Positions 4,322-53,640 of a DNA stretch of 64,000 nt are shown in pieces (the stretch's first letter is position 1; every line of letters starts with the position of its first letter). The position numbers and the translations under genes were made by a program. The DNA is from Escherichia phage vb_EcoM_bov9_1: sequence record MT884006.2; one strand, 5' to 3'. The notes below the pieces were generated by a model that was not told the DNA's origin, ran no database searches, and saw nothing but the letters and a program-made list of their open reading frames with translations.

Positions 4322-4345
4322 AAAGCTAAAGGCCCGAAGGCCTTT
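4322..4345 (-). terminator. intrinsic terminator hairpin (GGCC-UUCG-GGCC in RNA) with U-tract
   Basis: plus-strand aaaggcccgaaggcctttt immediately downstream of the stop of the 4345..4614 ORF. Confidence 0.5.
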
Positions 4346-4614
4346 TATTTAAAACGAATAGTTGAATCCTTAAAGAACAGCCCAGAACATACTGTTCCTT
4401 CTACTTTCTGCCCAGTAGGTCCAATAGCACGAAATCCAGTATGTTGGAAATCATTTTCAGAACAACCGAACCAATTATATCCAGTGATTTCAATATTAGT
4501 AAAACCACCTGAAGACAAAACTTTGGTTGCATTATCAGCATCAGTACATCCTACTAAAGACACTGCTAATACTAATGCTGCAATAGAACGATTAATATAT
4601 TTCATAATTTTCAC
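4345..4614 (-). CDS. predicted lipoprotein (signal peptide plus lipobox LVGC)
   Basis: 89-aa ORF, N-terminus MKIMKYINRSIAALVLAVSLVGC typical of lipoprotein signal peptide. Confidence 0.55.
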   Translation of the reverse strand: MKIMKYINRSIAALVLAVSLVGCTDADNATKVLSSGGFTNIEITGYNWFGCSENDFQHTGFRAIGPTGQKVEGTVCSGLFFKDSTIRFK

Positions 4615-5811: not shown

Positions 5812-6093
5812 TTAATTGAACAGTGGAGCGATGCGTTTCAGAAGAGTAGCAGCACCTTTAGCGAATTTTACATCATGAAAAACAGTTTCTTCTTCCGTTA
5901 CAACACGAGCTTTAATGTTTTCACAATCCCAATTTTTGCGAACAATCTTCAAAAGCTGCAGTAAATCTTTACATTCAGCAATATCGATAACACATCCACG
6001 AGAATCTTCCATTATCGCACGATAACCGTAAGCCATACCATAATCGTTGAAAGATTGCTCGATGATAATTAAGTTTTCCATTTTATTCTCCAA
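5812..6093 (-). CDS. hypothetical protein (N-terminus MENKMEN shared with two other genes in the window)
   Basis: 93-aa ORF preceded by the repeated leader cassette. Confidence 0.5.
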   Translation of the reverse strand: MENKMENLIIIEQSFNDYGMAYGYRAIMEDSRGCVIDIAECKDLLQLLKIVRKNWDCENIKARVVTEEETVFHDVKFAKGAATLLKRIAPLFN

Positions 6094-6178
6094 GTTATTT
6101 TCTGTATCAGTAGTTGATATTGATATAGTACCATAATCAACTACTGATGTATATAGTTTTATGAAAAAATTTTAAACT

Positions 6179-17968: not shown

Positions 17969-18616
17969 TTAACCTTTATTCATAAAAGCATTAAAAATTT
18001 GATCGTCAATAGAAACTTTTACTTTAGGCTGTTCTTCAAACGGTAATTCATATCCACATATTACAATTTTGTGATCGATACCAAAATACACAGAAGCAAT
18101 ATGATTAATATTATTTTCAGTGAAATCTAAATCAACATCAATATCTTTTTGACCACAGCCCAAAGGATAATTAATACGAATAATTCGATTATCTTTAACA
18201 AATATTCCACCGACATACTCTGTGCTGCGTTTAAAGTTTACACGTTTCCTAAATGAAAAATATTCAGGTTCTTTATGAGCCCGACTCATAGGACACAATG
18301 AGTAGCTAGAATAAGAGATGTCAAATCCTACACCTTCAATATGAATATGAGCCAACGTGTCATGATTAAACCAATTATAATCATATGCCAAATCCATTAT
18401 ATTGTAATATGTGAAAGGCACCGGATTAACATCATGTGTTGTACCTTTAAAATCTGCCCAGGCAACGATTTCGTTATCTTTAACAATTACAAAAATTACA
18501 CCGATATGGTATCCATTATTATTTTCATTCGGCGTTATATTATAACATTGCGCATTAGGAAATTTACCATATTTAAACGGCGCGTTTTTGTGCATGTAAT
18601 AAATCATATTATTCAC
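17969..18616 (-). CDS. hypothetical protein (61.2 position)
   Basis: 215-aa ORF; C-terminus SIDDQIFNAFMNKG. Confidence 0.5.
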   Translation of the reverse strand: MNNMIYYMHKNAPFKYGKFPNAQCYNITPNENNNGYHIGVIFVIVKDNEIVAWADFKGTTHDVNPVPFTYYNIMDLAYDYNWFNHDTLAHIHIEGVGFDISYSSYSLCPMSRAHKEPEYFSFRKRVNFKRSTEYVGGIFVKDNRIIRINYPLGCGQKDIDVDLDFTENNINHIASVYFGIDHKIVICGYELPFEEQPKVKVSIDDQIFNAFMNKG

Positions 18617-18902
18617 CTGTGATTTCGGTTACGATATTTTTGTTATTAAAGTTTTTATCGCAATACAAAACATAGTTATACTGCATCACACCACCTGATT
18701 TAAGCTGTTTTTGTACTTCAGCTTTCATTTCAGGACGATCACGCTCAACGATATTCATAATATCCGCTTCAATTTGAGTTTCAACTTCAGTCTGATCTGC
18801 AGTCATAGACCATTCACATAAATCTTTATCATAACCTGCCATAGCAGGCTGAGCAGCACAAGAAGCTAAAGCAAAAATTGTAGCAAAGATAAATTTTTTC
18901 AT
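18609..18902 (-). CDS. sp: Spackle periplasmic protein (superinfection exclusion, lysozyme inhibitor)
   Basis: 97-aa ORF with signal peptide MKKFIFATIFALASCAAQPAMA; size and position between 61 and 41 match T4 sp (61.3). Confidence 0.7.
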   Translation of the reverse strand: MKKFIFATIFALASCAAQPAMAGYDKDLCEWSMTADQTEVETQIEADIMNIVERDRPEMKAEVQKQLKSGGVMQYNYVLYCDKNFNNKNIVTEITGE

Positions 18903-22501: not shown

Positions 22502-23350
22502 TTAATCAACTGCTATCGGATGAATAGCATTAAACTTATGAAATGCTTCTGATTTTTCTTTACGAGAAACACACATGCGAAGAACCTTTAATGGCTCGTC
22601 TTCTTCACCCAACGATTTTCGTTTTTCAATATTAGAAGTTTTCCAACGAGCTTGCTCTGGAAACTCTCTATTGATTTGCTCAAGCGCTCTATTATGTTTA
22701 GAATTACTACGAATTGAACTGCACCCGCCAGGAGCTTGTGCTTTTCCAGATACAACCAGATATTTGAACAAGGCCAAATGCGGATAACCTTGATTAATTA
22801 AATTGAGAAATGCATACATATCTTCACATAAATCAATTTTTCCATACCCAATTTGTTCTGTCGTAAGTTTTCCGAGGTCATACCATGTATTCGTGAATCC
22901 ATATGAATTTTCACGATAATTACCCCAAGATGAAGTAATTTTAAAAATAGGTAGACGAGCATGGCCATGATAATACCCACAATCCATGGCATCCTCAACA
23001 TATTGAATCAATTCATAGAACTGTTCACGAGTCAATTGATTGACTTTATCCACACAACGACGATCATCTCTTTTTCGCATTGAACTCATACGAATAGTAG
23101 TATCATCGTCAATCATCCAGATTCGTTGACCTGCATACATGTCAGTAATTGCTTTACGAGTACCGGCAATTCCGTTTACATCATCAGGAATAGTTATAAT
23201 TTTAGCTCTAGACCCATAGGCATCATAATAAGCTTTTTCTTCGTGTTCACGCACTACAATATGTGGTTCATAATCAGTCGGAAACATATCAAGGGCAGAA
23301 ACTGCCCCTACACGTTGATAGCTTGGAATTACGAATTGAATCATTTCCAC
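22502..23350 (-). CDS. putative glycosyltransferase with DxD motif at the beta-gt locus (not T4 beta-gt)
   Basis: 282-aa ORF between uvsX and 42; WMIDDDTTIR motif suggests a GT-A-type sugar transferase; no resemblance to my recollection of T4 beta-glucosyltransferase. Confidence 0.5.
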   Translation of the reverse strand: MEMIQFVIPSYQRVGAVSALDMFPTDYEPHIVVREHEEKAYYDAYGSRAKIITIPDDVNGIAGTRKAITDMYAGQRIWMIDDDTTIRMSSMRKRDDRRCVDKVNQLTREQFYELIQYVEDAMDCGYYHGHARLPIFKITSSWGNYRENSYGFTNTWYDLGKLTTEQIGYGKIDLCEDMYAFLNLINQGYPHLALFKYLVVSGKAQAPGGCSSIRSNSKHNRALEQINREFPEQARWKTSNIEKRKSLGEEDEPLKVLRMCVSRKEKSEAFHKFNAIHPIAVD

Positions 23351-24081
23351 TCACCGTTATAATCTTTTTTCACAATATGAGTTTCGCCAGTATTCCACCA
23401 ATGATCAACCAAGTAAAAATGACGAGAATATACATGAAGACTTCCAACATTCCATATAATAGAACCTGCTTTATACTGACGAGTTGAATCGCCTGCATTC
23501 AAATCAGATACTAATTTATCTAATACGTATTTTTGCCATGCATAATCATTACGGAATCCGAAGACCACGTCATTTGAGCGCATGCTTACTACTGCATTGA
23601 CTTTCTTATCACGAATCAGGTACTGTACTGTATTAGTACACATGAAATCTGACATACCATCTTTATTGTAGTCAAATTGCATGGATGGACGAGTATAAAT
23701 CATGATACCACGTCGAGAATCAGGATTTTGACCAAGTTCAGCTAAACACATATCATACTGAGCATAGTTATCTTCTGACCAGATAGCCCAACCGTAATTC
23801 GAGTTAATTTCACCTTTAGAAGATGCTACTTGTTGCCAAATCTTCGGTGTTTCACCCGGAATATCTTTAACGAACAAGCTCTTAGATTTATACCATTCAA
23901 GTTCACGCTGAATGTATTCATCATTAAGAGCGCCAAAAATAAACGGTTCATCTGCTACAAATGATGCGCCAATAATTTCAATAGTTTTAACACCAGTTTT
24001 ATCAACTACGAAATCTTTTTCTTTTAATGCAAGCCCCAAATGAAGACGGATTTCTTCAACTGTCATAGAGTCACTAATCAT
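23341..24081 (-). CDS. 42: dCMP hydroxymethylase gp42
   Basis: 246-aa ORF; thymidylate-synthase-like fold motifs; size equals T4 gp42. Confidence 0.9.
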   Translation of the reverse strand: MISDSMTVEEIRLHLGLALKEKDFVVDKTGVKTIEIIGASFVADEPFIFGALNDEYIQRELEWYKSKSLFVKDIPGETPKIWQQVASSKGEINSNYGWAIWSEDNYAQYDMCLAELGQNPDSRRGIMIYTRPSMQFDYNKDGMSDFMCTNTVQYLIRDKKVNAVVSMRSNDVVFGFRNDYAWQKYVLDKLVSDLNAGDSTRQYKAGSIIWNVGSLHVYSRHFYLVDHWWNTGETHIVKKDYNGEWK

Positions 24082-24088
24082 TTAAACC

Positions 24089-24238
24089 TCAATTGATACA
24101 TTCATATTTAACTTGTAACAGTAATAAACTCCAACCTAAAATAATAGTTGGAATCATAAGAGGAACCGTTACACTATAGTATATACTTATTATAACCATC
24201 AAGATTAAAAGCAACACTGCTATAATTTTGCTTTTCAT
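24089..24238 (-). CDS. small hydrophobic membrane protein (imm.1-like)
   Basis: 49-aa ORF not in the track (MKSKIIAVLLLILMVIISIYYSV...); start overlaps the imm stop; coordinates hand-derived. Confidence 0.35.
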   Translation of the reverse strand: MKSKIIAVLLLILMVIISIYYSVTVPLMIPTIILGWSLLLLQVKYECIN

Positions 24239-24486
24239 TCTTTCTCTCTGATGATAATTACTTGATTTGGCTGTGCAGACTTTTTGGTTTCACCCGCAAT
24301 TGACCAAATAAATGTAATAAACCAACCAATAATTGACCAGTTAAACAGTAAAGATGTGAAAAAGATTCCTACTGTCGATTTTGACCCACGCATCAAAGCA
24401 ATAAACCATGGAAGCATGTATATAATAATAGCCAACACGCCTGAAACTAAAACCATAAAAATTGAACCTGCTACTAAAGTTTCCAT
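24235..24486 (-). CDS. imm: Imm superinfection immunity membrane protein
   Basis: 83-aa ORF with two hydrophobic helices; size and position after gene 42 match T4 imm. Confidence 0.75.
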   Translation of the reverse strand: METLVAGSIFMVLVSGVLAIIIYMLPWFIALMRGSKSTVGIFFTSLLFNWSIIGWFITFIWSIAGETKKSAQPNQVIIIREKE

Positions 24487-24493
24487 GTTTTCC

Positions 24494-24874
24494 TCACTTA
24501 GTCAAATTTTTTACGCATGAATTATAAGAATTCACTACATACTCCATCGGAGCATTTTTACCGGTACGCCATTGGTAATTATTAGCCCAATTAGCCCAAA
24601 TTTCGGCGCAGTAGTTTTCAATTTTTTCTTCGCGTGTAATTACATCAGAATTACGATATGCTTGAGCAGATTCATCTGGACGAATAGCTTCGTCAAAATT
24701 CGCCTGCATTTGTTCGACTGTTTGCTTTGGAGCTTCTTTATAACACTTGACATTAGGATTATAAAATTTGCTTGAACAGTTTACAATTTTTCCTACATCA
24801 GACTGATTTACTACTGGTCCTTGAGCTACACAGCCAGTAAGACCTAATGCAATAATCAAAATAGCGATTTTCAT
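24494..24874 (-). CDS. predicted lipoprotein
   Basis: 126-aa ORF, signal peptide with lipobox LTGC. Confidence 0.55.
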   Translation of the reverse strand: MKIAILIIALGLTGCVAQGPVVNQSDVGKIVNCSSKFYNPNVKCYKEAPKQTVEQMQANFDEAIRPDESAQAYRNSDVITREEKIENYCAEIWANWANNYQWRTGKNAPMEYVVNSYNSCVKNLTK

Positions 24875-24884
24875 AATAATTTCC

Positions 24885-25133
24885 TCAAATACAAGTAGTA
24901 ATTACTCCAGTAGTGCTTATGCAGGTATTACCCATTTGCACACCTAAAGATCCATTTGTATTCACATGAAGATTATCATCAATTTTAACTGATATTTTAC
25001 CATTAGTGTGAATAACAGTGCTAGATTCAATCACAGGTTGAGTATCATTTTCAACACTAACAAATGGAACTGCTGTTAATGCAACTAAACAAACTGCTAA
25101 GCATCCCATAACAATTTTCATTTTATTCTCCAA
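24885..25133 (-). CDS. predicted secreted or membrane-anchored small protein
   Basis: 82-aa ORF with N-terminal hydrophobic signal; begins MENKMK like two other genes. Confidence 0.5.
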   Translation of the reverse strand: MENKMKIVMGCLAVCLVALTAVPFVSVENDTQPVIESSTVIHTNGKISVKIDDNLHVNTNGSLGVQMGNTCISTTGVITTCI

Positions 25134-25158
25134 ATCTGTATCAGTAGTTGATAGTTGT

Positions 25159-25188
25159 ATAGTACCATGGAAGAACAGTCTTGTAAAC
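25159..25188 (-). promoter_or_regulatory. T4-type early promoter inside a repeated promoter-leader cassette
   Basis: minus-strand GTTTAC-18-TGgTACTAT; cassette also seen near 51108 and 52547. Confidence 0.5.
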
Positions 25189-25270
25189 AGTTTTGTGAAA
25201 AATTTTTTAATGAATCCAAAAGGTCCAGAATCATCTGTTTTTCACAAGTATAGATTTATATTACTTGTAT

Positions 25271-25292
25271 GAAAAAGGGACCCGGAGGTCCC
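25271..25292 (-). terminator. intrinsic terminator hairpin downstream of gene 43
   Basis: gggacc-cgga-ggtccc inverted repeat with flanking A/T tract. Confidence 0.55.
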
Positions 25293-25305
25293 TAGATTTA
25301 TTCTA

Positions 25306-28002
25306 TCAGCCAAACAGGAAGTCTAACGAAGCTTTTTCTTCATAGTCCATACCAGCCGATTCACACATACCCGCAAGCGGTTTAACAAACGATTTTTGGA
25401 ACAAAGTTGAGTAGTCAATCCAAGACAGTACATCAGAACGAATTTCTTTTGGAAGTTCTGTGCCCGACGGCCAAGCAATGCACTTGTCACCAAATGGATT
25501 TCCTTCACGCAATGGAAGAACCATTACCTTATTTCCATCCAAAATTGGAGCTACACCTAAACCGCTAACAGCTCGACGATAAGTTAGCACACCACGAATA
25601 TGGAACGGGCATTTAAATCCTGGCCAACCTTTATCATCATATTTCGCTATATCGTTCGCAGTTTTTACTTCAGCAATAACTTTATAGTCAAGTTGACGAT
25701 ATTCTTTCTCGAAGTTCTTGTAATATTCTTGGACAGACTCTTCACCTTCCTGAAGAATACGACGAATACTTTCTTCGAGAGCTTCTTGCACTGCCTTTGG
25801 TGTTGAACTCTGCTGAGTTTCCATACCCATGATTTTTAGATGCGGTTCAGCAAATCGCTTATCTTCCATATCATAAACGTTCAGAGCATAACGCTTTTTC
25901 GCTTTCCAAAATCCACCAACGCCCTTTGAACCAAGCGGAGGGCAAGAAATAGCTTCACGGTCCATATGCATCAGATGCTCGCGGTTATTCATATAATCAC
26001 ATAACTCACGATATGCAACATCAATCATAGGTTCCATCTTTTTCTTACCGAACTGATTCATGAATTCAACTAAATCGTTCTGCTCTTTGAATCGGTCAAG
26101 ACCAACTTTTTCAATAACTTTATCTACACAAACATATACCGAATCAGTATCACCTGCTGCAATGAAATCTTCACCATTAGTTCCGCATACTTTATTCAGA
26201 TATTCATTAATTTTACGAGCAATCCACTGAATACCAACTTGGCCGAAAATTGTGATAGCAGTAGCATTTCGCAAATCATAGTAACGGAAATGAATATTAC
26301 CAAGAGCACCATAAAGACTGTTAATAAGAATTTTACGGTTCAGCTGATTTGTGTTAGCAAGTGTAGCCGCTTTTTCGCATTCCTCAATCAGACTATTGAG
26401 AACAGATTCAGTATAATTCGATAGTTCATTTAAGAAATCATCACTGAACTTAACATATCGTTCAACTTCTGGTTTAGTTGAACAGGACCCTGCGCCTTTC
26501 ATAATAATCTTTTTAATAGCTTCGGCATTCATTTCTTCAGCGAACATTTTCTTTTTCCAATCTTTACGCTGGAAAAATACTTTAGCGATTTCCTTTGGAA
26601 TGATACCTTCTTGATGCTTATCATACATCCATCCATTCGGAGAACAAGAATATTCATCACTCGGTTTAGGAGCTGTTCCTGCGATATATTCATGAATTGG
26701 ATGAACTTTAAACTGCCCACGAATAGTCTCAGGACTAATGTTAACCTGACGAATAATGCTCGGATACAGAGACGTCAAGTCAAAACTCATAATATATCGA
26801 CGAGCAATTGGTTTAGGTTCAAATACAAATGCACCCGGAAAACTTTGTTTAACGTGCGAACCTTGTTGAGGAATAACCTTGTGTTCACCTTTCAATGAGT
26901 TAAAAATAATAGCATCCCAAGTTTTAATAGGACTCATTACACCAGAAAAAGGCATTTTAGCGTAATAAGACATACTTAAAACTAGATCGATAAACCCGCG
27001 AATTTTATCAATTGCTTGAACTGATTCTACGTCAATGATGTTATAACTAATGTATCGTTGATGATTAGTCTCACGAAGTTTATTAATAGGACCGTCGTAT
27101 GGTAATTTACCTTTTTTGGTTTCATGTTGAGCAACTGATTCCAAAGAGAATGACGGCAAATTAGTAAAAGCGAATTTCTTGTACAAATCTAAATAATCAA
27201 GAATAGATACGCCATCAATAGAATAAATTTCTTTGCTACCGTACATATTTTGAATTAGTTTAGATTTTACTCGACCGATTGGAGAGAAGCGTTTCATACT
27301 GCGTTCACCTAGAATCATTTTAACACGATTCATGATATACGGAACGTCAAACCCCTCAATATTCCAACCAGTAAAAATAGCAGGTCGTTTCTGTTCCCAG
27401 AGATTAATATATTCCATGAGCATATCACGCTCATTATCGAATGGCATATAAATTACTCGGTCAAGAATTTCTTGAGGAACTTCATCACCACCTTCACAGT
27501 CAAGCTTAGCAGCTAACTTTGCATCCCATTTTGATACTGAACCGTACATTGAATTCAAAAGGTCGAAAACATAAAAACGGTCATCAATTGAATCGTAATG
27601 AGTGATAGCATCAATTTCATATTCAGCTTTCATTGGGTCAGGAAATTTATCACCAGTAACCTCAATGTCACAGTTAGCTACACGAACAAATTTTCGGTCA
27701 TAAACAATTTCTGAACCATACGTATCACTGATATAAGCGAGTTTAAAATCGTTCATACCGAGAGCTTCGAGACCGATGTCTTCCATTCGCTTCATCCAAT
27801 CTCGAGCATCTTTCATTGATGGAAATTTTTGAGGAGCGCAATTTTTACCATAAATGTCTTTGTATTTTGACTCTTCCTTACAATGCCTAAACATAGTCGG
27901 AAGATATTCTACTTCACGAGTACGTTCCTTTCCGTTTTCATCAATATAACGTTCAACAATGTTATTTCCGACTGTTTCAATAGAGATATAAAATTCTTTC
28001 AT
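25306..28002 (-). CDS. 43: DNA polymerase gp43 (family B, with 3'-5' exonuclease)
   Basis: 898-aa ORF; exo motifs and polymerase motifs (SLYPSII, AAGDTDS-like); length equals T4 gp43. Confidence 0.97.
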   Translation of the reverse strand: MKEFYISIETVGNNIVERYIDENGKERTREVEYLPTMFRHCKEESKYKDIYGKNCAPQKFPSMKDARDWMKRMEDIGLEALGMNDFKLAYISDTYGSEIVYDRKFVRVANCDIEVTGDKFPDPMKAEYEIDAITHYDSIDDRFYVFDLLNSMYGSVSKWDAKLAAKLDCEGGDEVPQEILDRVIYMPFDNERDMLMEYINLWEQKRPAIFTGWNIEGFDVPYIMNRVKMILGERSMKRFSPIGRVKSKLIQNMYGSKEIYSIDGVSILDYLDLYKKFAFTNLPSFSLESVAQHETKKGKLPYDGPINKLRETNHQRYISYNIIDVESVQAIDKIRGFIDLVLSMSYYAKMPFSGVMSPIKTWDAIIFNSLKGEHKVIPQQGSHVKQSFPGAFVFEPKPIARRYIMSFDLTSLYPSIIRQVNISPETIRGQFKVHPIHEYIAGTAPKPSDEYSCSPNGWMYDKHQEGIIPKEIAKVFFQRKDWKKKMFAEEMNAEAIKKIIMKGAGSCSTKPEVERYVKFSDDFLNELSNYTESVLNSLIEECEKAATLANTNQLNRKILINSLYGALGNIHFRYYDLRNATAITIFGQVGIQWIARKINEYLNKVCGTNGEDFIAAGDTDSVYVCVDKVIEKVGLDRFKEQNDLVEFMNQFGKKKMEPMIDVAYRELCDYMNNREHLMHMDREAISCPPLGSKGVGGFWKAKKRYALNVYDMEDKRFAEPHLKIMGMETQQSSTPKAVQEALEESIRRILQEGEESVQEYYKNFEKEYRQLDYKVIAEVKTANDIAKYDDKGWPGFKCPFHIRGVLTYRRAVSGLGVAPILDGNKVMVLPLREGNPFGDKCIAWPSGTELPKEIRSDVLSWIDYSTLFQKSFVKPLAGMCESAGMDYEEKASLDFLFG

Positions 28003-40035: not shown

Positions 40036-40065
40036 ATAATACCACGGTTTGAACTTGTTGTAAAC
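40036..40065 (-). promoter_or_regulatory. T4-type early promoter
   Basis: minus-strand GTTTAC-18-TGgTATTAT. Confidence 0.5.
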
Positions 40066-40145
40066 AACTTTGTGAAAAATATTTTAGGGAATGATAAGAA
40101 AGGAACGATAGCTTAGAATGGTAATATACAGAATGTAAGAAAGAA

Positions 40146-50551: not shown

Positions 50552-51139
50552 TTATGCGAGTACCGTCTTTAACCGTTCTTCAAACTTCCGAAGAGTATTT
50601 TGGCGTTCAGCTCTTTGCTTTTTGTAAGTTTCAATACGCTCTGAAATGAGATTGTATCGTTCATTTACTGATTCTTTCATAAAATCAGGAATTTCACGAG
50701 AAGCTTTAATCTCGTCAAATTTATCAATAACAGCTTGCTCTTCAGCAATTAAGTTATCATACATCAAAATATCTTTCTTGATGAACTCAATATCTTCTTG
50801 AGTTACACGAGATAATTTAGATGCTTTATCCTTTTTGTACTGTTCGTTAGTATCACGAGACCAGTGTAATGTACGATTTTTATTCGTATTCTTGTAAATT
50901 TCTACAATACCAATCTCATCGATAATAACGATCCAATTCCAACGGGATTTGTAAATTTGTCCTCCATCAACAGTGATTTCACCTCCGATTGAGATGTCAT
51001 TAAAGAACTTGCTTTGTGCTTCAGATTTAAATTTACCATCATTGTAGTTTACCAAGTTGAAAATATCTTTAGCATTCATTTTCTGTTCCTCCGTAGTTGA
51101 TAGTTGTATAGTACCACAGAGGAACGGTCTTGTAAACAA
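50552..51139 (-). CDS. hypothetical protein with C-terminal coiled coil
   Basis: 195-aa ORF; start probably internal. Confidence 0.45.
   Translation of the reverse strand: MFTRPFLCGTIQLSTTEEQKMNAKDIFNLVNYNDGKFKSEAQSKFFNDISIGGEITVDGGQIYKSRWNWIVIIDEIGIVEIYKNTNKNRTLHWSRDTNEQYKKDKASKLSRVTQEDIEFIKKDILMYDNLIAEEQAVIDKFDEIKASREIPDFMKESVNERYNLISERIETYKKQRAERQNTLRKFEERLKTVLA
51108..51137 (-). promoter_or_regulatory. T4-type early promoter in a repeated cassette
   Basis: minus-strand GTTTAC-18-TGgTACTAT. Confidence 0.5.
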
Positions 51140-51543: not shown

Positions 51544-52524
51544 TTATTTCAGAAGAGTAACCTCAGCGATTTCTTCCCAACCGTTTTTGTCGGTCATAAT
51601 AAAGTCAGCAAGATAAAGAGCAGTACGCAGTGAAACATTGCGTAAACGATTAACATTGACTTTCATCCATGATAATGCTTTATAAGTTTCTTCATCAGAA
51701 AGACCACGCTTTTGCATCATGTCAGTTGAAAGAATAACATCTTCAACCCTGACCATAATTTCTTCATTAGTGTGAACACCCAAATCCAAATAAACTGAGC
51801 GGGACACTAATGCTTGTAAATGTGGAGCAAGTTTAGTACCACGGTCTAATTCGCGGTCAATGTCAACGTTTGTGATAAAAACAATCGTTCCTTTAAATTC
51901 AAACTCACGCTCAATGCCTTTTTCTTCTAAGTAAGAAGATGCGGTGCTCCAGCAGACTTTACGGGTCTCTCCAGTGTCCAGAGCAGCTTTCAGAAGATTA
52001 AGAATGTCCATATCAGAGAAAACATCCACATCATCAATCAAAAGGACAGAATTCTCTTCACGATTATTCCAAAGCTGCTCATAAAGACCAATACCAGAGA
52101 TTTTACCATTAATGCTTTTATATTCAATGTATCCAATATCATTTGCTTTATTTAAAGCTTTATCTAAAGAATACGTTTTACCAATACCTGCTGCACCAGA
52201 GATAATTAATGAACGAATGTTTCCGTTAATAATACCATTCGTCATCATTCCCATAACATTAAATCTTTTATTAATGCGGGTTTTCATATCTTCATACGAT
52301 TCTTTAACTTCTTCAACTTTTACACCATCATATGAAATGTCTGATTTGTAAACCCAAACACCGCGACGTTTACCGTCAATTTCAACAAAAACTTTACCAT
52401 CTCCTTGTGCATCTACCGGAGCATTATCTGGGAACCATTCGCCTAAGAGCTCAAAAGTTCCAGAGATTTCTTTACCGAAGTAGATACCCTTATTGATAGT
52501 TACAGTTTTCATTTTATTCTCCAA
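51544..52524 (-). CDS. P-loop ATPase (AAA-like)
   Basis: 326-aa ORF; Walker A GAAGIGKT and Walker B VLLIDDVD. Confidence 0.6.
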   Translation of the reverse strand: MENKMKTVTINKGIYFGKEISGTFELLGEWFPDNAPVDAQGDGKVFVEIDGKRRGVWVYKSDISYDGVKVEEVKESYEDMKTRINKRFNVMGMMTNGIINGNIRSLIISGAAGIGKTYSLDKALNKANDIGYIEYKSINGKISGIGLYEQLWNNREENSVLLIDDVDVFSDMDILNLLKAALDTGETRKVCWSTASSYLEEKGIEREFEFKGTIVFITNVDIDRELDRGTKLAPHLQALVSRSVYLDLGVHTNEEIMVRVEDVILSTDMMQKRGLSDEETYKALSWMKVNVNRLRNVSLRTALYLADFIMTDKNGWEEIAEVTLLK

Positions 52525-52546
52525 ATCCGTATCAGTTGATAGTTGT

Positions 52547-52576
52547 ATAGTACCATAAAGCTTTATGCTTGTAAAC
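52547..52576 (-). promoter_or_regulatory. T4-type early promoter in a repeated cassette
   Basis: minus-strand GTTTAC-18-TGgTACTAT upstream of the ATPase gene. Confidence 0.5.
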
Positions 52577-52604
52577 AGTTTTGTGAAAAATTTTTGAAAT
52601 AAAA

Positions 52605-52625
52605 AAGGGAGCCCGAAGGCTCCCT
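52605..52625 (-). terminator. hairpin with UUCG loop
   Basis: gggagcc-cgaa-ggctccc followed by a T-tract on the minus strand. Confidence 0.55.
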
Positions 52626-52626
52626 A

Positions 52627-53640
52627 TCATTTATAATAACTTCGGTGGTTTTCAAGATAGACCTTCTCAAGGAAGTCATCCCAGAAACTCATGTCTACTG
52701 TTTTAGGCATACCATTCTTAGAAGCTTCAGTAGATGCTGCTTCTACTTGATCGACCACATCTTCCAAAAACTCTTGAACTGTTTTAAATGGATGTTTACC
52801 CAACTTCACGTCGAGAATAAATGGAGCATCTTGGAGTGGATAAATCAAGTCGCCAGTTTTGTAAATTTCCAATAGTTGAAGTCCACCACGACAAGCATGA
52901 CTTAGTGCTTTCCAATCAATACCTTCATTAGCTTCGGCCTTACGAGCACGTTCACCATATTCAGCATCTAATTTGTTCAGTGACTGCTTAAGCTCAATAA
53001 GAGAAAGCGTTGTCTGATATTTACGACCCAGCACTGTATAGAACATTTGTGGACCTGTTTTCTCATGATTATGGAACACCCATTCACAGAATTCGTTTTC
53101 TGGAAGACGATGCTTAATATCTTCAACTTTAGTACGACGCTGCTTAATGGAACCGTCTTCTTGGTAATCAACCCATTGCTCAGGGATTTGATTAACTACT
53201 TTCAATACATCACGTAATGCAGCCAAACGAGAACCCTTGACGCCGTATTTAGAAGCTTGCTTGCGGACATATCCTAAATAGGATTTCATGTTAGTCGTAT
53301 AAAAACGAGAACGGTTGTCTTGAATAAACTTCCACACATCAGGCAAATCAGATTTAACCACTAGTTCAGGTGGAGTGTGAAGCATATCCAATGCTACAGT
53401 TTCACCATCTGCTGCTAATTTAAAGAAATACTTAAGACTATACAATTCGTGGTCAATATCATCTTTAGTGTTTTTAGATGATGTGTTGTTGGTATTTTTA
53501 CTCATATGCTCTTTAACATTTCCGATAAGAATATCACGAGCAGGAGGAACAAAGATTTCTTTAAAATCTACATCAGATTCTGGGGTAGAAGTTCCATAAA
53601 GATGACTACCAAAATAGCTTTTCATTACTGTTTTCATCAT
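52627..53640 (-). CDS. putative nucleotidyltransferase (Pol-beta-like NTase fold)
   Basis: 337-aa ORF; N-terminal GSHLYGTSTPESDVDF resembles the GS...DxD motif of Pol-beta-superfamily nucleotidyltransferases. Confidence 0.5.
   Translation of the reverse strand: MMKTVMKSYFGSHLYGTSTPESDVDFKEIFVPPARDILIGNVKEHMSKNTNNTSSKNTKDDIDHELYSLKYFFKLAADGETVALDMLHTPPELVVKSDLPDVWKFIQDNRSRFYTTNMKSYLGYVRKQASKYGVKGSRLAALRDVLKVVNQIPEQWVDYQEDGSIKQRRTKVEDIKHRLPENEFCEWVFHNHEKTGPQMFYTVLGRKYQTTLSLIELKQSLNKLDAEYGERARKAEANEGIDWKALSHACRGGLQLLEIYKTGDLIYPLQDAPFILDVKLGKHPFKTVQEFLEDVVDQVEAASTEASKNGMPKTVDMSFWDDFLEKVYLENHRSYYK

What the first reader, a model, noticed from the sequence alone, without database searches (positions are those of the whole stretch)
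24494..25133. Lipoprotein and secreted-protein genes inserted between imm and DNA polymerase
Two small genes with secretion signals lie between imm and gene 43: a 126-aa lipoprotein (lipobox LTGC) and an 82-aa protein with a hydrophobic N-terminal signal, the latter preceded by a copy of the repeated promoter-leader cassette. They are next to the imm superinfection-immunity gene, and periplasmic or outer-membrane phage lipoproteins commonly mediate superinfection exclusion or receptor masking.
Basis: partly seen in the sequence, partly recalled or inferred. Interest (0 to 1): 0.45.

Follow-up and report, generated by a model that had tools for sequence, protein, structure and literature searches.

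The report
T4 imm.1 lipoprotein plus accessory ORFan
The two small genes are real: one is the T4 gene imm.1, an exported lipoprotein of untested function that sits next to the superinfection-immunity gene imm in every T4-like phage lineage examined, and the other is a dispensable small exported protein that about a third of close relatives, T4 included, lack.

Summary
The window is the first 64 kb of Escherichia phage vb_EcoM_bov10K1, a Tequatrovirus.

**The 126-aa gene (24494-24874, minus strand)** is not an insertion. It is the ortholog of T4 imm.1 (98% identity; Pfam DUF5481, phrog_1754). It has a canonical lipobox (LTGC, Cys15). It is under strong purifying selection (dN/dS about 0.04).

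**The "82-aa" gene** is really 78 aa (24885-25121). The TTG start is an artefact of the shared leader TTGGAGAATAAAATG. The protein has a Sec-type hydrophobic N-terminus and no lipobox. It evolves about 19 times faster than imm.1. A clean 247-bp indel removes it from T4 and from roughly a third of Tequatrovirus genomes. The repeated terminator/early-promoter/leader cassette in front of it is real and is PeSL-like.

**Main new result:** Imm.1-family lipoproteins lie next to an Imm (PF14373) gene in all 13 T4-like lineages examined. They do so in three different gene orders.

This supports a functional link between Imm.1 and Imm. Imm.1 is near-invariant across Tequatrovirus phages of several host genera (that they use different receptors is recalled, not tested), which argues against receptor masking. 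No experiment, structural match or paper assigns either protein a function. The genes are already catalogued, and interest is moderate.

The parts
25276..25293 (-). Intrinsic terminator hairpin (AGGGACCTCCGGGTCCCT followed by TTTTT) just after the gene 43 stop codon. It is the stem-loop half of a PeSL-like cassette.
   Evidence: Terminator scan. The sequence is 97% conserved with T4.
25159..25187 (-). T4-type early (sigma-70-like) promoter: (G)TTTACA, 17 nt, TACTAT preceded by TG, with an A/T-rich stretch upstream.
   Evidence: Promoter scan. The same sequence block recurs at four other sites in the window. It is identical in T4, where it directly precedes imm.1.
25122..25158 (-). Shared leader with the Shine-Dalgarno sequence GGAG (25128-25131). 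The TTG at 25131-25133 is not a start codon.
   Evidence: Alignment of cassette copies. The same 'TTG MENKM' artefact is seen at 52524 and 6093.
24885..25121 (-). orf78: a 78-aa accessory protein (phrog_4189). It has an N-terminal Sec-type signal or membrane anchor, a beta-rich Thr/Asn/Gly-rich mature part, and two C-terminal Cys residues.
   Evidence: It is absent from T4 through a 247-bp indel bounded by ATGAAAAT at both start codons.
24494..24874 (-). imm.1: a 126-aa predicted lipoprotein (lipobox LTGC, Cys15, +2 residue Val). Pfam DUF5481, phrog_1754. The mature part is helical with four Cys residues.
24235..24486 (-). imm: the 83-aa superinfection-immunity inner-membrane protein (PF14373). 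It starts 7 nt after the imm.1 stop codon, and that TGA overlaps its Shine-Dalgarno sequence GAGG.
24089..24238 (-). orf49: a small, very hydrophobic protein with probably two membrane segments (T4 Y02C family, phrog_3610). Its start overlaps the imm stop codon (ATGA). It is not annotated in this record or in NC_000866.

Best explanation
The region is the promoter-proximal part of an early-transcribed run of four small cell-envelope genes: orf78, imm.1, imm and orf49 (Y02C). It is driven by a T4 early promoter that follows the gene 43 terminator.

**Shown**
- imm.1 is a core, strongly constrained gene.
- Its product carries a canonical lipoprotein signal. The residue after the lipid-modified Cys is never Asp.
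- The mature part always contains an even number of Cys residues.
- Homologs of this lipoprotein lie beside imm in every T4-like lineage examined.

**Inferred**
- Imm.1 is exported by Sec, lipidated on Cys15 and sorted by Lol to the periplasmic face of the outer membrane.
- It folds there into a small disulfide-bonded helical domain.
- It acts together with the inner-membrane protein Imm in the immunity that an infected cell sets up within minutes against further T-even phages.
- Its target is most likely something common to all these phages or hosts, such as the penetrating tail tip or tube, or an envelope component at the injection site. A particular receptor is unlikely.

**orf78** is an accessory small protein. 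It is either cleaved and periplasmic or N-terminally anchored. It rides behind the mobile promoter/leader cassette, is gained and lost by recombination, and evolves fast. Its role is unknown. It may modulate the envelope or add to exclusion, but it is dispensable.
For: **Identity and conservation**
- The region is 100% identical to MT884007.2, and the T4 orthologs were identified.

**Export signals**
- Lipobox patterns are met in the window protein and in 19 of 20 full-length family members.
- The +2 residue is V, A, G, S or Q, never D.
- Each family member has 2 or 4 further Cys residues.
- K2, G14, C89 and C120 are invariant across 10 sequences that share only 18-43% identity with the window protein.
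- C33 and C44 are both missing in RB69.

**Selection**
- dN/dS is 0.04 for imm.1, 0 for imm and 0.39 for orf78.

**Linkage**
- Tequatrovirus: 43-(orf78)-imm.1-imm-orf49-42.
- RB69 and L010: 61.4-imm.1-imm-sp.
- L012, L014 and L015: imm.1 directly upstream of imm.
- S16, Klebsiella phi1_146043 and PS2: lipoprotein directly upstream of imm.
- SP18 and IME08: lipoprotein downstream of imm.
- L021-L027: adjacent in both orders.
- All these lipoproteins hit phrog_1754 with E-values from 1e-15 to 1e-52.
- Record counts agree. Imm is in 1001 records. The four Imm.1 sub-types are in 656, 148, 116 and 98 records, with some overlap. Klebsiella phage records number 135 for both.

**Expression**
- There is an early promoter and no terminator-like site on the coding strand between it and gene 42.
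- Spacers are short or overlapping, consistent with translational coupling.

**orf78**
- Indel structure.
- Presence in about 65% of Tequatrovirus records: 325 against 501.
- Decayed or rearranged copies exist.
Against: - No experiment or paper links Imm.1 to exclusion. A full-text search found one paper naming it, and only speculatively.
- From memory (Lu and Henning, J Virol 1989; not held in the library), plasmid-borne imm alone confers immunity. If so, Imm.1 is not strictly required.
- Imm-family genes stand alone in non-T4-like phages such as 37P2 and LZ35.
- A lipobox match is not proof. T4 Sp also matches the pattern, yet is described as a soluble periplasmic protein (PMC7677548). One Imm.1 homolog, P0018, has a plain SPase I signal instead.
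- Linkage could reflect shared early timing and shared export needs rather than a joint function.
- Structure models are weak: pLDDT 64 for Imm.1 and 53 for orf78. Fold and profile searches found no informative relative.
Confidence: 0.5

Rival explanations
1. Imm.1 is an exported envelope protein whose job is unrelated to superinfection immunity. Possible jobs include protecting or remodelling the envelope during infection, tuning lysis timing or lysis inhibition, or countering a host envelope defence. On this view it sits beside imm only because small early-expressed membrane and periplasmic genes are co-transcribed.
For: - Function is unknown in every library searched.
- Imm works without a lipoprotein partner in other phage groups.
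- The same early transcription unit also holds orf78 and orf49, so it is a general cluster of envelope proteins.
Against: - Adjacency survives three different rearrangements, including relocation of the pair away from genes 43 and 42 and inversion of the order of the two genes. Co-transcription alone would not keep them together.
- In RB69 the pair lands next to sp, the other known exclusion gene.
Confidence: 0.3
2. Imm.1 or orf78 masks the phage's outer-membrane receptor, as T5 Llp and the phi80/N15 Cor lipoproteins do for FhuA.
For: - Imm.1 is a small phage lipoprotein that the +2 rule sends to the outer membrane.
- It is expressed early.
- Llp is a precedent for this mechanism (PMC9586334, listed).
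Against: - Imm.1 is at least 95% identical in 498 of the 501 closely related (>=90% identity) records, from phages of Escherichia, Shigella, Yersinia, Salmonella, Serratia and Citrobacter. From memory, members of this group use different receptors (OmpC, FadL/OmpF, Tsx).
- There is no similarity to the Cor or Llp families. The only Cor hit was to the signal peptide of the PS2 homolog, at E = 8e-4.
- orf78 is more variable but has no lipobox in this phage.
Confidence: 0.08
3. orf78 is evolutionary cargo: an ORFan carried by cassette-mediated recombination, with little or no function and on its way to being lost.
For: - It is absent from about a third of Tequatrovirus genomes, including T4, RB32, PST and pSs-1.
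- Truncated or frameshifted copies exist in CrRp10, P0014 and CT01.
- Its dN is 19 times that of imm.1 in the same pair of genomes.
- No homolog was found outside T-even phages among 5.8 billion proteins.
Against: - dN/dS of 0.39 still indicates constraint.
- The reading frame is intact in 302 records.
- The signal sequence, the mature-part motifs and the last Cys are conserved.
- It has a strong promoter and a good ribosome-binding site.
Confidence: 0.35

Closest known systems
T4 Imm.1 (gene imm.1, NP_049661; Pfam DUF5481 / PF17578; phrog_1754)
   Same: The 126-aa protein is its ortholog. It is 98% identical, occupies the same position between imm and gene 43, and has the same lipobox.
   Different: - There is one extra C-terminal residue.
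- In T4 the early promoter and leader abut imm.1 directly, because orf78 is missing.
- The family has no assigned function. The RefSeq label 'iduronate sulfatase' has no support in the Pfam, PHROG or NCBIfam scans.
T4 Imm and Sp (spackle) superinfection-exclusion proteins
   Same: - They are expressed early, are small and are located in the envelope.
- imm is the immediate neighbour, and in RB69 imm.1, imm and sp are contiguous.
- A review states that Imm blocks passage of DNA through the plasma membrane and that Sp inhibits gp5 lysozyme (PMC9311878; PMC7677548).
   Different: - There is no sequence similarity to either protein.
- Imm.1 is predicted to be lipid-anchored, which is not how either of the others is described.
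- No exclusion phenotype is known for imm.1 or orf78.
Phage exclusion lipoproteins: T5 Llp, Cor of phi80/N15/HK022, Ltp of Streptococcus phage TP-J34 (own knowledge, apart from the T5 paper PMC9586334)
   Same: They are small phage-encoded lipoproteins made in the infected or lysogenic cell that act in the envelope against incoming phage. Ltp, which from memory targets a component of the incoming tail rather than the receptor, is the closest functional analogy to what is proposed here.
   Different: - They are not homologous.
- Llp and Cor act alone on one receptor, FhuA. Imm.1 is always paired with an inner-membrane protein and does not vary among phages of different host genera.
- The function of Imm.1 is untested.
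PeSL cassettes (promoter-early stem-loop) of T4-like phages (Arbiol et al. 2010, PMC2839356; Comeau et al. 2014, PMC4122927)
   Same: - A stem-loop terminator and a strong early promoter with an A/T-rich upstream region are repeated around the genome.
- The cassette sits next to a variable ORFan.
- The gene 43 region is named as PeSL-rich in other T4-like phages.
   Different: - The hairpin lies about 60 nt upstream of the A/T-rich block.
- The conserved block extends through the leader, the Shine-Dalgarno sequence and the ATG.
- The orf78 indel is not flanked by two full cassettes. Its right-hand boundary is only an 8-nt repeat, ATGAAAAT.
- CT01 does carry a second, partial cassette.

Membership tests
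Imm.1 family (Pfam DUF5481 / phrog_1754) | Significant match to the family profile over the full length | tested here: met
   PF17578 gives E = 1.7e-71 and 237.6 bits against a cut-off of 27, covering profile positions 1-103 of 103. phrog_1754 gives E = 5.5e-44. The protein is 98% identical to T4 Imm.1.
Imm.1 family (Pfam DUF5481 / phrog_1754) | Position next to imm | tested here: met
   There are 7 nt between the imm.1 stop and the imm start in the window. The two genes are adjacent in 13 of 13 lineages.
Bacterial-type lipoprotein (PROSITE PS51257 / SPase II substrate): the 126-aa protein | Positively charged n-region, hydrophobic h-region, lipobox [LVI][ASTVI][GAS]C with the Cys at residues 15-35 | tested here: met
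   MK-IAILIIALG-LTGC. Both regular expressions match at Cys15, and 19 of 20 full-length relatives match as well. Caveat: T4 Sp also matches the pattern, yet is described as soluble.
Bacterial-type lipoprotein (PROSITE PS51257 / SPase II substrate): the 126-aa protein | Actual diacylglyceryl modification and cleavage by LspA | not testable with these tools
   This needs globomycin sensitivity, palmitate labelling or mass spectrometry.
Bacterial-type lipoprotein: the 78-aa protein | Lipobox at a suitable distance from the N-terminus | tested here: not met
   Neither pattern matches. Cys7 and Cys11 are too close to the N-terminus, and LAVC has Val at position -1. Only the HY01-type variant P0011 gains an LAAC lipobox, through a 7-aa duplication.
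Sec signal peptide (SPase I substrate): the 78-aa protein | n-, h- and c-regions with small residues at -1 and -3 | tested here: inconclusive
   K2 and a 15-residue h-region are present. The candidate site is LTA|VPF here and ALA|AVP in most relatives. Only hand-made rules were applied because no SignalP-type predictor was available. An uncleaved N-terminal anchor is equally possible.
Cor / Llp receptor-blocking lipoproteins | Sequence membership of the Cor (phrog_1119) or Llp families | tested here: not met
   Neither window protein gives a hit in PHROGs or Pfam. The only Cor hit was to residues 1-40 (the signal peptide) of the PS2 homolog, at E = 8e-4.
Imm superinfection-immunity family (PF14373) | Match to the Imm_superinfect profile | tested here: not met
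   Only the neighbouring 83-aa gene matches (E = 7.7e-16). The 126-aa and 78-aa proteins do not. The GenBank label 'immunity protein' on the 126-aa CDS is by association only.
PeSL regulatory cassette | Stem-loop terminator plus a strong sigma-70-like early promoter with an A/T-rich upstream region, repeated in the genome and next to variable ORFans | tested here: met
   The hairpin is at 25276-25293 and the promoter at 25159-25187. There are four further copies in the window, and the one at 52513 has its own GC hairpin. The adjacent ORFan is variable. Promoter and terminator activity were not measured.

The most novel reading that the evidence does not exclude
T4-like phages encode a conserved immunity module that spans the cell envelope, rather than the single protein Imm. 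The module would consist of an outer-membrane lipoprotein (Imm.1), the inner-membrane protein Imm, and often the tiny membrane protein Y02C (orf49).

Imm.1 would be the missing periplasmic or outer-membrane partner. It would explain how Imm diverts the DNA of superinfecting phage into the periplasm, for example by engaging the incoming tail tip or the injection site. orf78 would be a strain-specific add-on to the same barrier.
Probability: 0.3. Interest if true: 0.65.

Novelty: new member of a known kind. Interest (0 to 1): 0.38.

Why it matters
How T4 Imm stops the DNA of a second phage from entering has been unclear since the gene was cloned. As far as the papers found here go, only Sp has a structural mechanism.

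A lipoprotein that has stayed beside imm through several genome rearrangements is a concrete, cheap candidate for a partner in that process. It could be tested by deleting imm.1 in T4 and scoring exclusion, and by co-expressing it with imm.

If the test is negative, imm.1 is still one of the few conserved exported T-even proteins with no known role. For annotation:

- The labels 'immunity protein' and 'iduronate sulfatase' on imm.1 rest on no evidence.
- orf78 has the wrong start in mechanical ORF calls.
- orf49 (Y02C) is missing from the T4 reference annotation and from this phage's GenBank record.

Tried and rejected
**Structure prediction.** AlphaFold2 models were made for both proteins from shallow alignments. 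Imm.1 reached pLDDT 64, and only the C-terminal helical hairpin was confident. orf78 reached pLDDT 53.

**Profile searches.** Pfam, NCBIfam, PADLOC and PDB sequence searches returned nothing beyond DUF5481.

**Exhaustive HMMER search.** A search of 1.84 billion representatives found six hits for Imm.1, all T-even-like.

**RNA.** An Rfam scan of 23300-25400 gave only a chance snoRNA hit at E = 0.29. Plus-strand ORFs antisense to the genes have no support.

**Literature.** 'imm.1' appears in one paper, speculatively. 'DUF5481' appears in none. Lu and Henning 1989 and 1993 and the Miller 2003 T4 review are not held.

**Ideas rejected**
- Cys7 of orf78 as a lipobox: the h-region before it is too short.
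- A simple PeSL-PeSL excision as the origin of the T4 allele: there is no second cassette at the right-hand boundary.

Full report
**What the sequence is.** The 1231 bases from 24080 to 25310 are 100% identical to Escherichia phage vb_EcoM_bov10K1 (MT884007.2, genus Tequatrovirus) at the same coordinates. The window is therefore the first 64 kb of that genome. All genes here are on the minus strand, in this order:

- regA
- gene 43 (DNA polymerase), 25306-28002
- a 78-aa ORF, 24885-25121
- a 126-aa ORF, 24494-24874
- imm, 24235-24486
- a 49-aa ORF, 24089-24238
- gene 42, 23341-24081

**Checking the observation.** Both small ORFs are real, conserved coding genes.

The 126-aa protein starts MKIAILIIALGLTGC.
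- It satisfies two published lipoprotein patterns, G+LPPv2 and PROSITE PS51257, with Cys15.
- tblastn finds it in 656 phage records.
- Its dN/dS against HY03 and T4 is about 0.04-0.05.

The second gene is 78 aa, not 82.
- The TTG at 25133 belongs to the leader TTGGAGAATAAAATG, in which GGAG is the ribosome-binding site.
- Two other copies of the same leader in the window give the same spurious 'MENKM' extension.
- GenBank annotates the ATG start.
- The N-terminus is signal-like. It has K2, a 15-residue hydrophobic core, and a possible SPase I site LTA|VPF, which is the more canonical ALA|AVP in most relatives. It has no usable lipobox.
- It occurs in 325 phage records. dN/dS is 0.39.

The "repeated promoter-leader cassette" is also real. 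Positions 25122-25210 match 52513-52598 (84% over 89 nt), 6082-6176, 51090-51138 and 40058-40092. It contains a T4-type early promoter (TTTACA, 17 nt, TG-TACTAT) downstream of the gene 43 terminator hairpin at 25276-25293.

**What is not right in the observation.** The lipoprotein gene is not an insertion. It is T4 gene imm.1 (98% identical), at the same place in T4 between imm and gene 43. It belongs to Pfam DUF5481 (E = 1.7e-71) and phrog_1754.

Only the 78-aa gene (phrog_4189) is variable.
- Aligned with T4, the region is 97% identical up to and including the leader. T4 then lacks exactly 247 bp.
- The leader therefore runs straight into the imm.1 start codon in T4.
- The two ends of the indel share the 8-nt repeat ATGAAAAT, because both genes begin MKI.
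- About 65% of Tequatrovirus records carry the gene (325 against 501 with a T4-type imm.1).
- The T4-type junction recurs in RB32, PST, pSs-1 and others.
- Decayed or rearranged copies exist. CrRp10 and P0014 are truncated. Shigella phage CT01 has the 5' end of imm.1 fused out of frame to the middle of orf78, then a partial second cassette, then an intact imm.1.

The cassette fits the published PeSL elements: a stem-loop terminator plus a strong early promoter, repeated, flanking ORFans and mediating their shuffling. The gene 43 region is named as PeSL-rich (PMC2839356; PMC4122927). However, the right-hand boundary of this particular indel is only a microhomology.

**The lipoprotein family and its linkage to imm.** The Imm.1 family is narrow. 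An exhaustive HMMER search of 1.84 billion representatives found six hits. A profile search of 5.8 billion proteins found 19 clusters, all from T4-like phages.

Across the family:
- The lipobox is kept in 19 of 20 full-length members.
- The residue after the Cys is never Asp. By the E. coli +2 rule (established knowledge) this means sorting to the outer membrane.
- The mature part always has two or four further Cys residues.
- In an alignment of ten members that share only 18-43% identity with the window protein, the invariant positions are K2, G14 (lipobox position -1), C89 and C120.
- C33 and C44 are lost together in RB69. This pattern is what periplasmic disulfides would give.
- One member, P0018, has an ordinary SPase I signal (…LAGFSAHA|S) in place of the lipobox. 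The periplasmic domain, not the lipid anchor, is therefore the constant feature.

The strongest result is synteny. A phrog_1754 lipoprotein (E = 1e-15 to 1e-52) lies beside an Imm (PF14373) gene in every T4-like lineage examined.

| Gene order | Lineages |
|---|---|
| Lipoprotein directly upstream of imm, in or near the gene 43-42 interval | Tequatrovirus, S16, Klebsiella phi1_146043, PS2, L012, L014, L023, L024 |
| Pair relocated elsewhere: 61.4-imm.1-imm-sp in RB69 and L010; a 61.4-like gene, then imm.1, imm and a 49-aa ORF in L015 | RB69, L010, L015 |
| Lipoprotein downstream of imm, sometimes with the small Y02C ORF between them | SP18, IME08, L021/22, L026/27 |

Record counts agree roughly.
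- Imm is in 1001 records.
- The four Imm.1 sub-types are in 656, 148, 116 and 98 records, with some overlap.
- Klebsiella phage records number 135 for both genes.
- In non-T4-like phages Imm stands alone.

Adjacency that survives relocation and inversion of order is classic evidence for a functional link. It is not proof.

**Mechanism.**

Shown:
- early promoter
- no terminator-like site on the coding strand before gene 42
- tight or overlapping gene spacing
- export signals
- strong constraint on imm.1
- conserved pairing with imm

Inferred: Imm.1 is lipidated, goes to the inner face of the outer membrane, forms a small disulfide-bonded helical domain, and contributes with Imm to the barrier against superinfecting phage. 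For the helical domain, only the C-terminal hairpin of the model is confident (pLDDT about 85). A review states that Imm blocks DNA passage through the plasma membrane and that Sp inhibits gp5 lysozyme (PMC9311878; PMC7677548).

Receptor masking is unlikely. Imm.1 is at least 95% identical in 498 of the 501 closely related (>=90% identity) records, from phages of six host genera. From memory, members of this group use different receptors. The closest functional analogy is therefore a lipoprotein that meets a conserved part of the incoming phage or of the injection site, like Ltp of TP-J34 (own knowledge). It is less like Llp or Cor.

orf78 evolves about 19 times faster than imm.1 in the same pair of genomes (dN 0.126 against 0.007). 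Its hydrophobic segment varies in length through 7-aa duplications, one of which creates a lipobox in HY01-type phages. It is dispensable. It is an exported accessory protein of unknown role.

**Limits.**
- No experiment or paper assigns a function to either protein.
- From memory, cloned imm alone gives immunity, so Imm.1 cannot be essential for it.
- A lipobox match is not proof. T4 Sp (18609-18902) also matches, and RB69 Sp keeps the Cys, yet Sp is described as a soluble 75-aa periplasmic protein.
- Structure predictions were weak, and fold and profile searches were uninformative.

**Verdict.**
- One gene is the known core T4 gene imm.1.
- The other is a catalogued accessory ORFan with a mis-called start.
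It gains none for the 78-aa protein.
- The genes are already in databases.
- The added value is the conserved Imm.1-Imm(-Y02C) module as a testable lead on how Imm works.

Noticed in passing
window 24089-24238 (-): A 49-aa, very hydrophobic ORF starts on the imm stop codon (ATGA). It is intact in T4 and conserved in the distant lineages L015, SP18 and L026. It matches phrog_3610, and its 46-aa homolog in the same position in L027 carries Pfam PF26865 (Phage_T4_Y02C). It is annotated neither in MT884007.2 nor in NC_000866. It often lies between imm and the Imm.1-like lipoprotein gene.
   Followed up: partly
window 18609-18902 (-): The spackle (sp) gene product, MKKFIFATIFALASC-AAQPAMA|GYD…, also matches the lipobox pattern at Cys15. 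RB69-type Sp (L010 4737-5030) keeps AVSC at the same position. Sp is nonetheless described as a soluble 75-aa periplasmic protein. Either the pattern gives a false positive here, or the processing of Sp deserves another look.
   Followed up: no
window 4345-4605 (-): This is the only other ATG ORF of at least 40 aa in the window that has a lipobox. It is 86 aa and starts MKYINRSIAALVLAVSLVGC. It was not identified.
   Followed up: no
L030 (Shigella phage CT01, OK018184.1) 590-1250: The locus is rearranged. In order it holds the leader, the first 100 nt or so of imm.1 fused out of frame to the middle of orf78, a partial second copy of the -10/leader cassette, and an intact imm.1. GenBank annotates a 179-aa read-through CDS here. 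It looks like a scar of recombination between the T4-type and orf78-type alleles.
   Followed up: partly
window 25070-25115 (-), orf78 residues 3-17: The hydrophobic segment varies in length among relatives through in-frame 7-aa duplications (CLVALAA). In HY01-type phages (P0011, 51 member sequences) the duplication creates an LAAC lipobox, and UniRef labels that variant 'Lipoprotein'.
   Followed up: partly
window 25210-25275 (-): Between the gene 43 terminator and the promoter's A/T-rich block lies a second small inverted repeat, ACAAGTA…TACTTGT. It is largely conserved in T4, with one mismatch in the right arm. Its purpose is unknown.
   Followed up: no
window 52513-52631 and 6082-6176 (-): These are other full copies of the promoter-leader-Shine-Dalgarno-ATG cassette. 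The copy at 52513 has its own GC-rich hairpin. They drive a 322-aa P-loop protein (starting at 52512) and an 89-aa ORF (starting at 6081). Mechanical ORF calling adds the same false 'MENK' N-terminus to both.
   Followed up: partly
L020 395-799 (Serratia phage PS2) and L023 1865-2254: In Muldoonvirus-like phages the gene 43 to imm.1 interval holds three other small genes. One of them is a signal-peptide protein of about 130 aa (…AFA|STFSC…). The slot upstream of imm.1 seems to collect exported proteins in more than one genus.
   Followed up: no
L002 3637-4014 (T4 NC_000866 imm.1): RefSeq names T4 Imm.1 'iduronate sulfatase'. Several GenBank records call it 'immunity protein'. Neither label is supported by any search made here.
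   Followed up: yes
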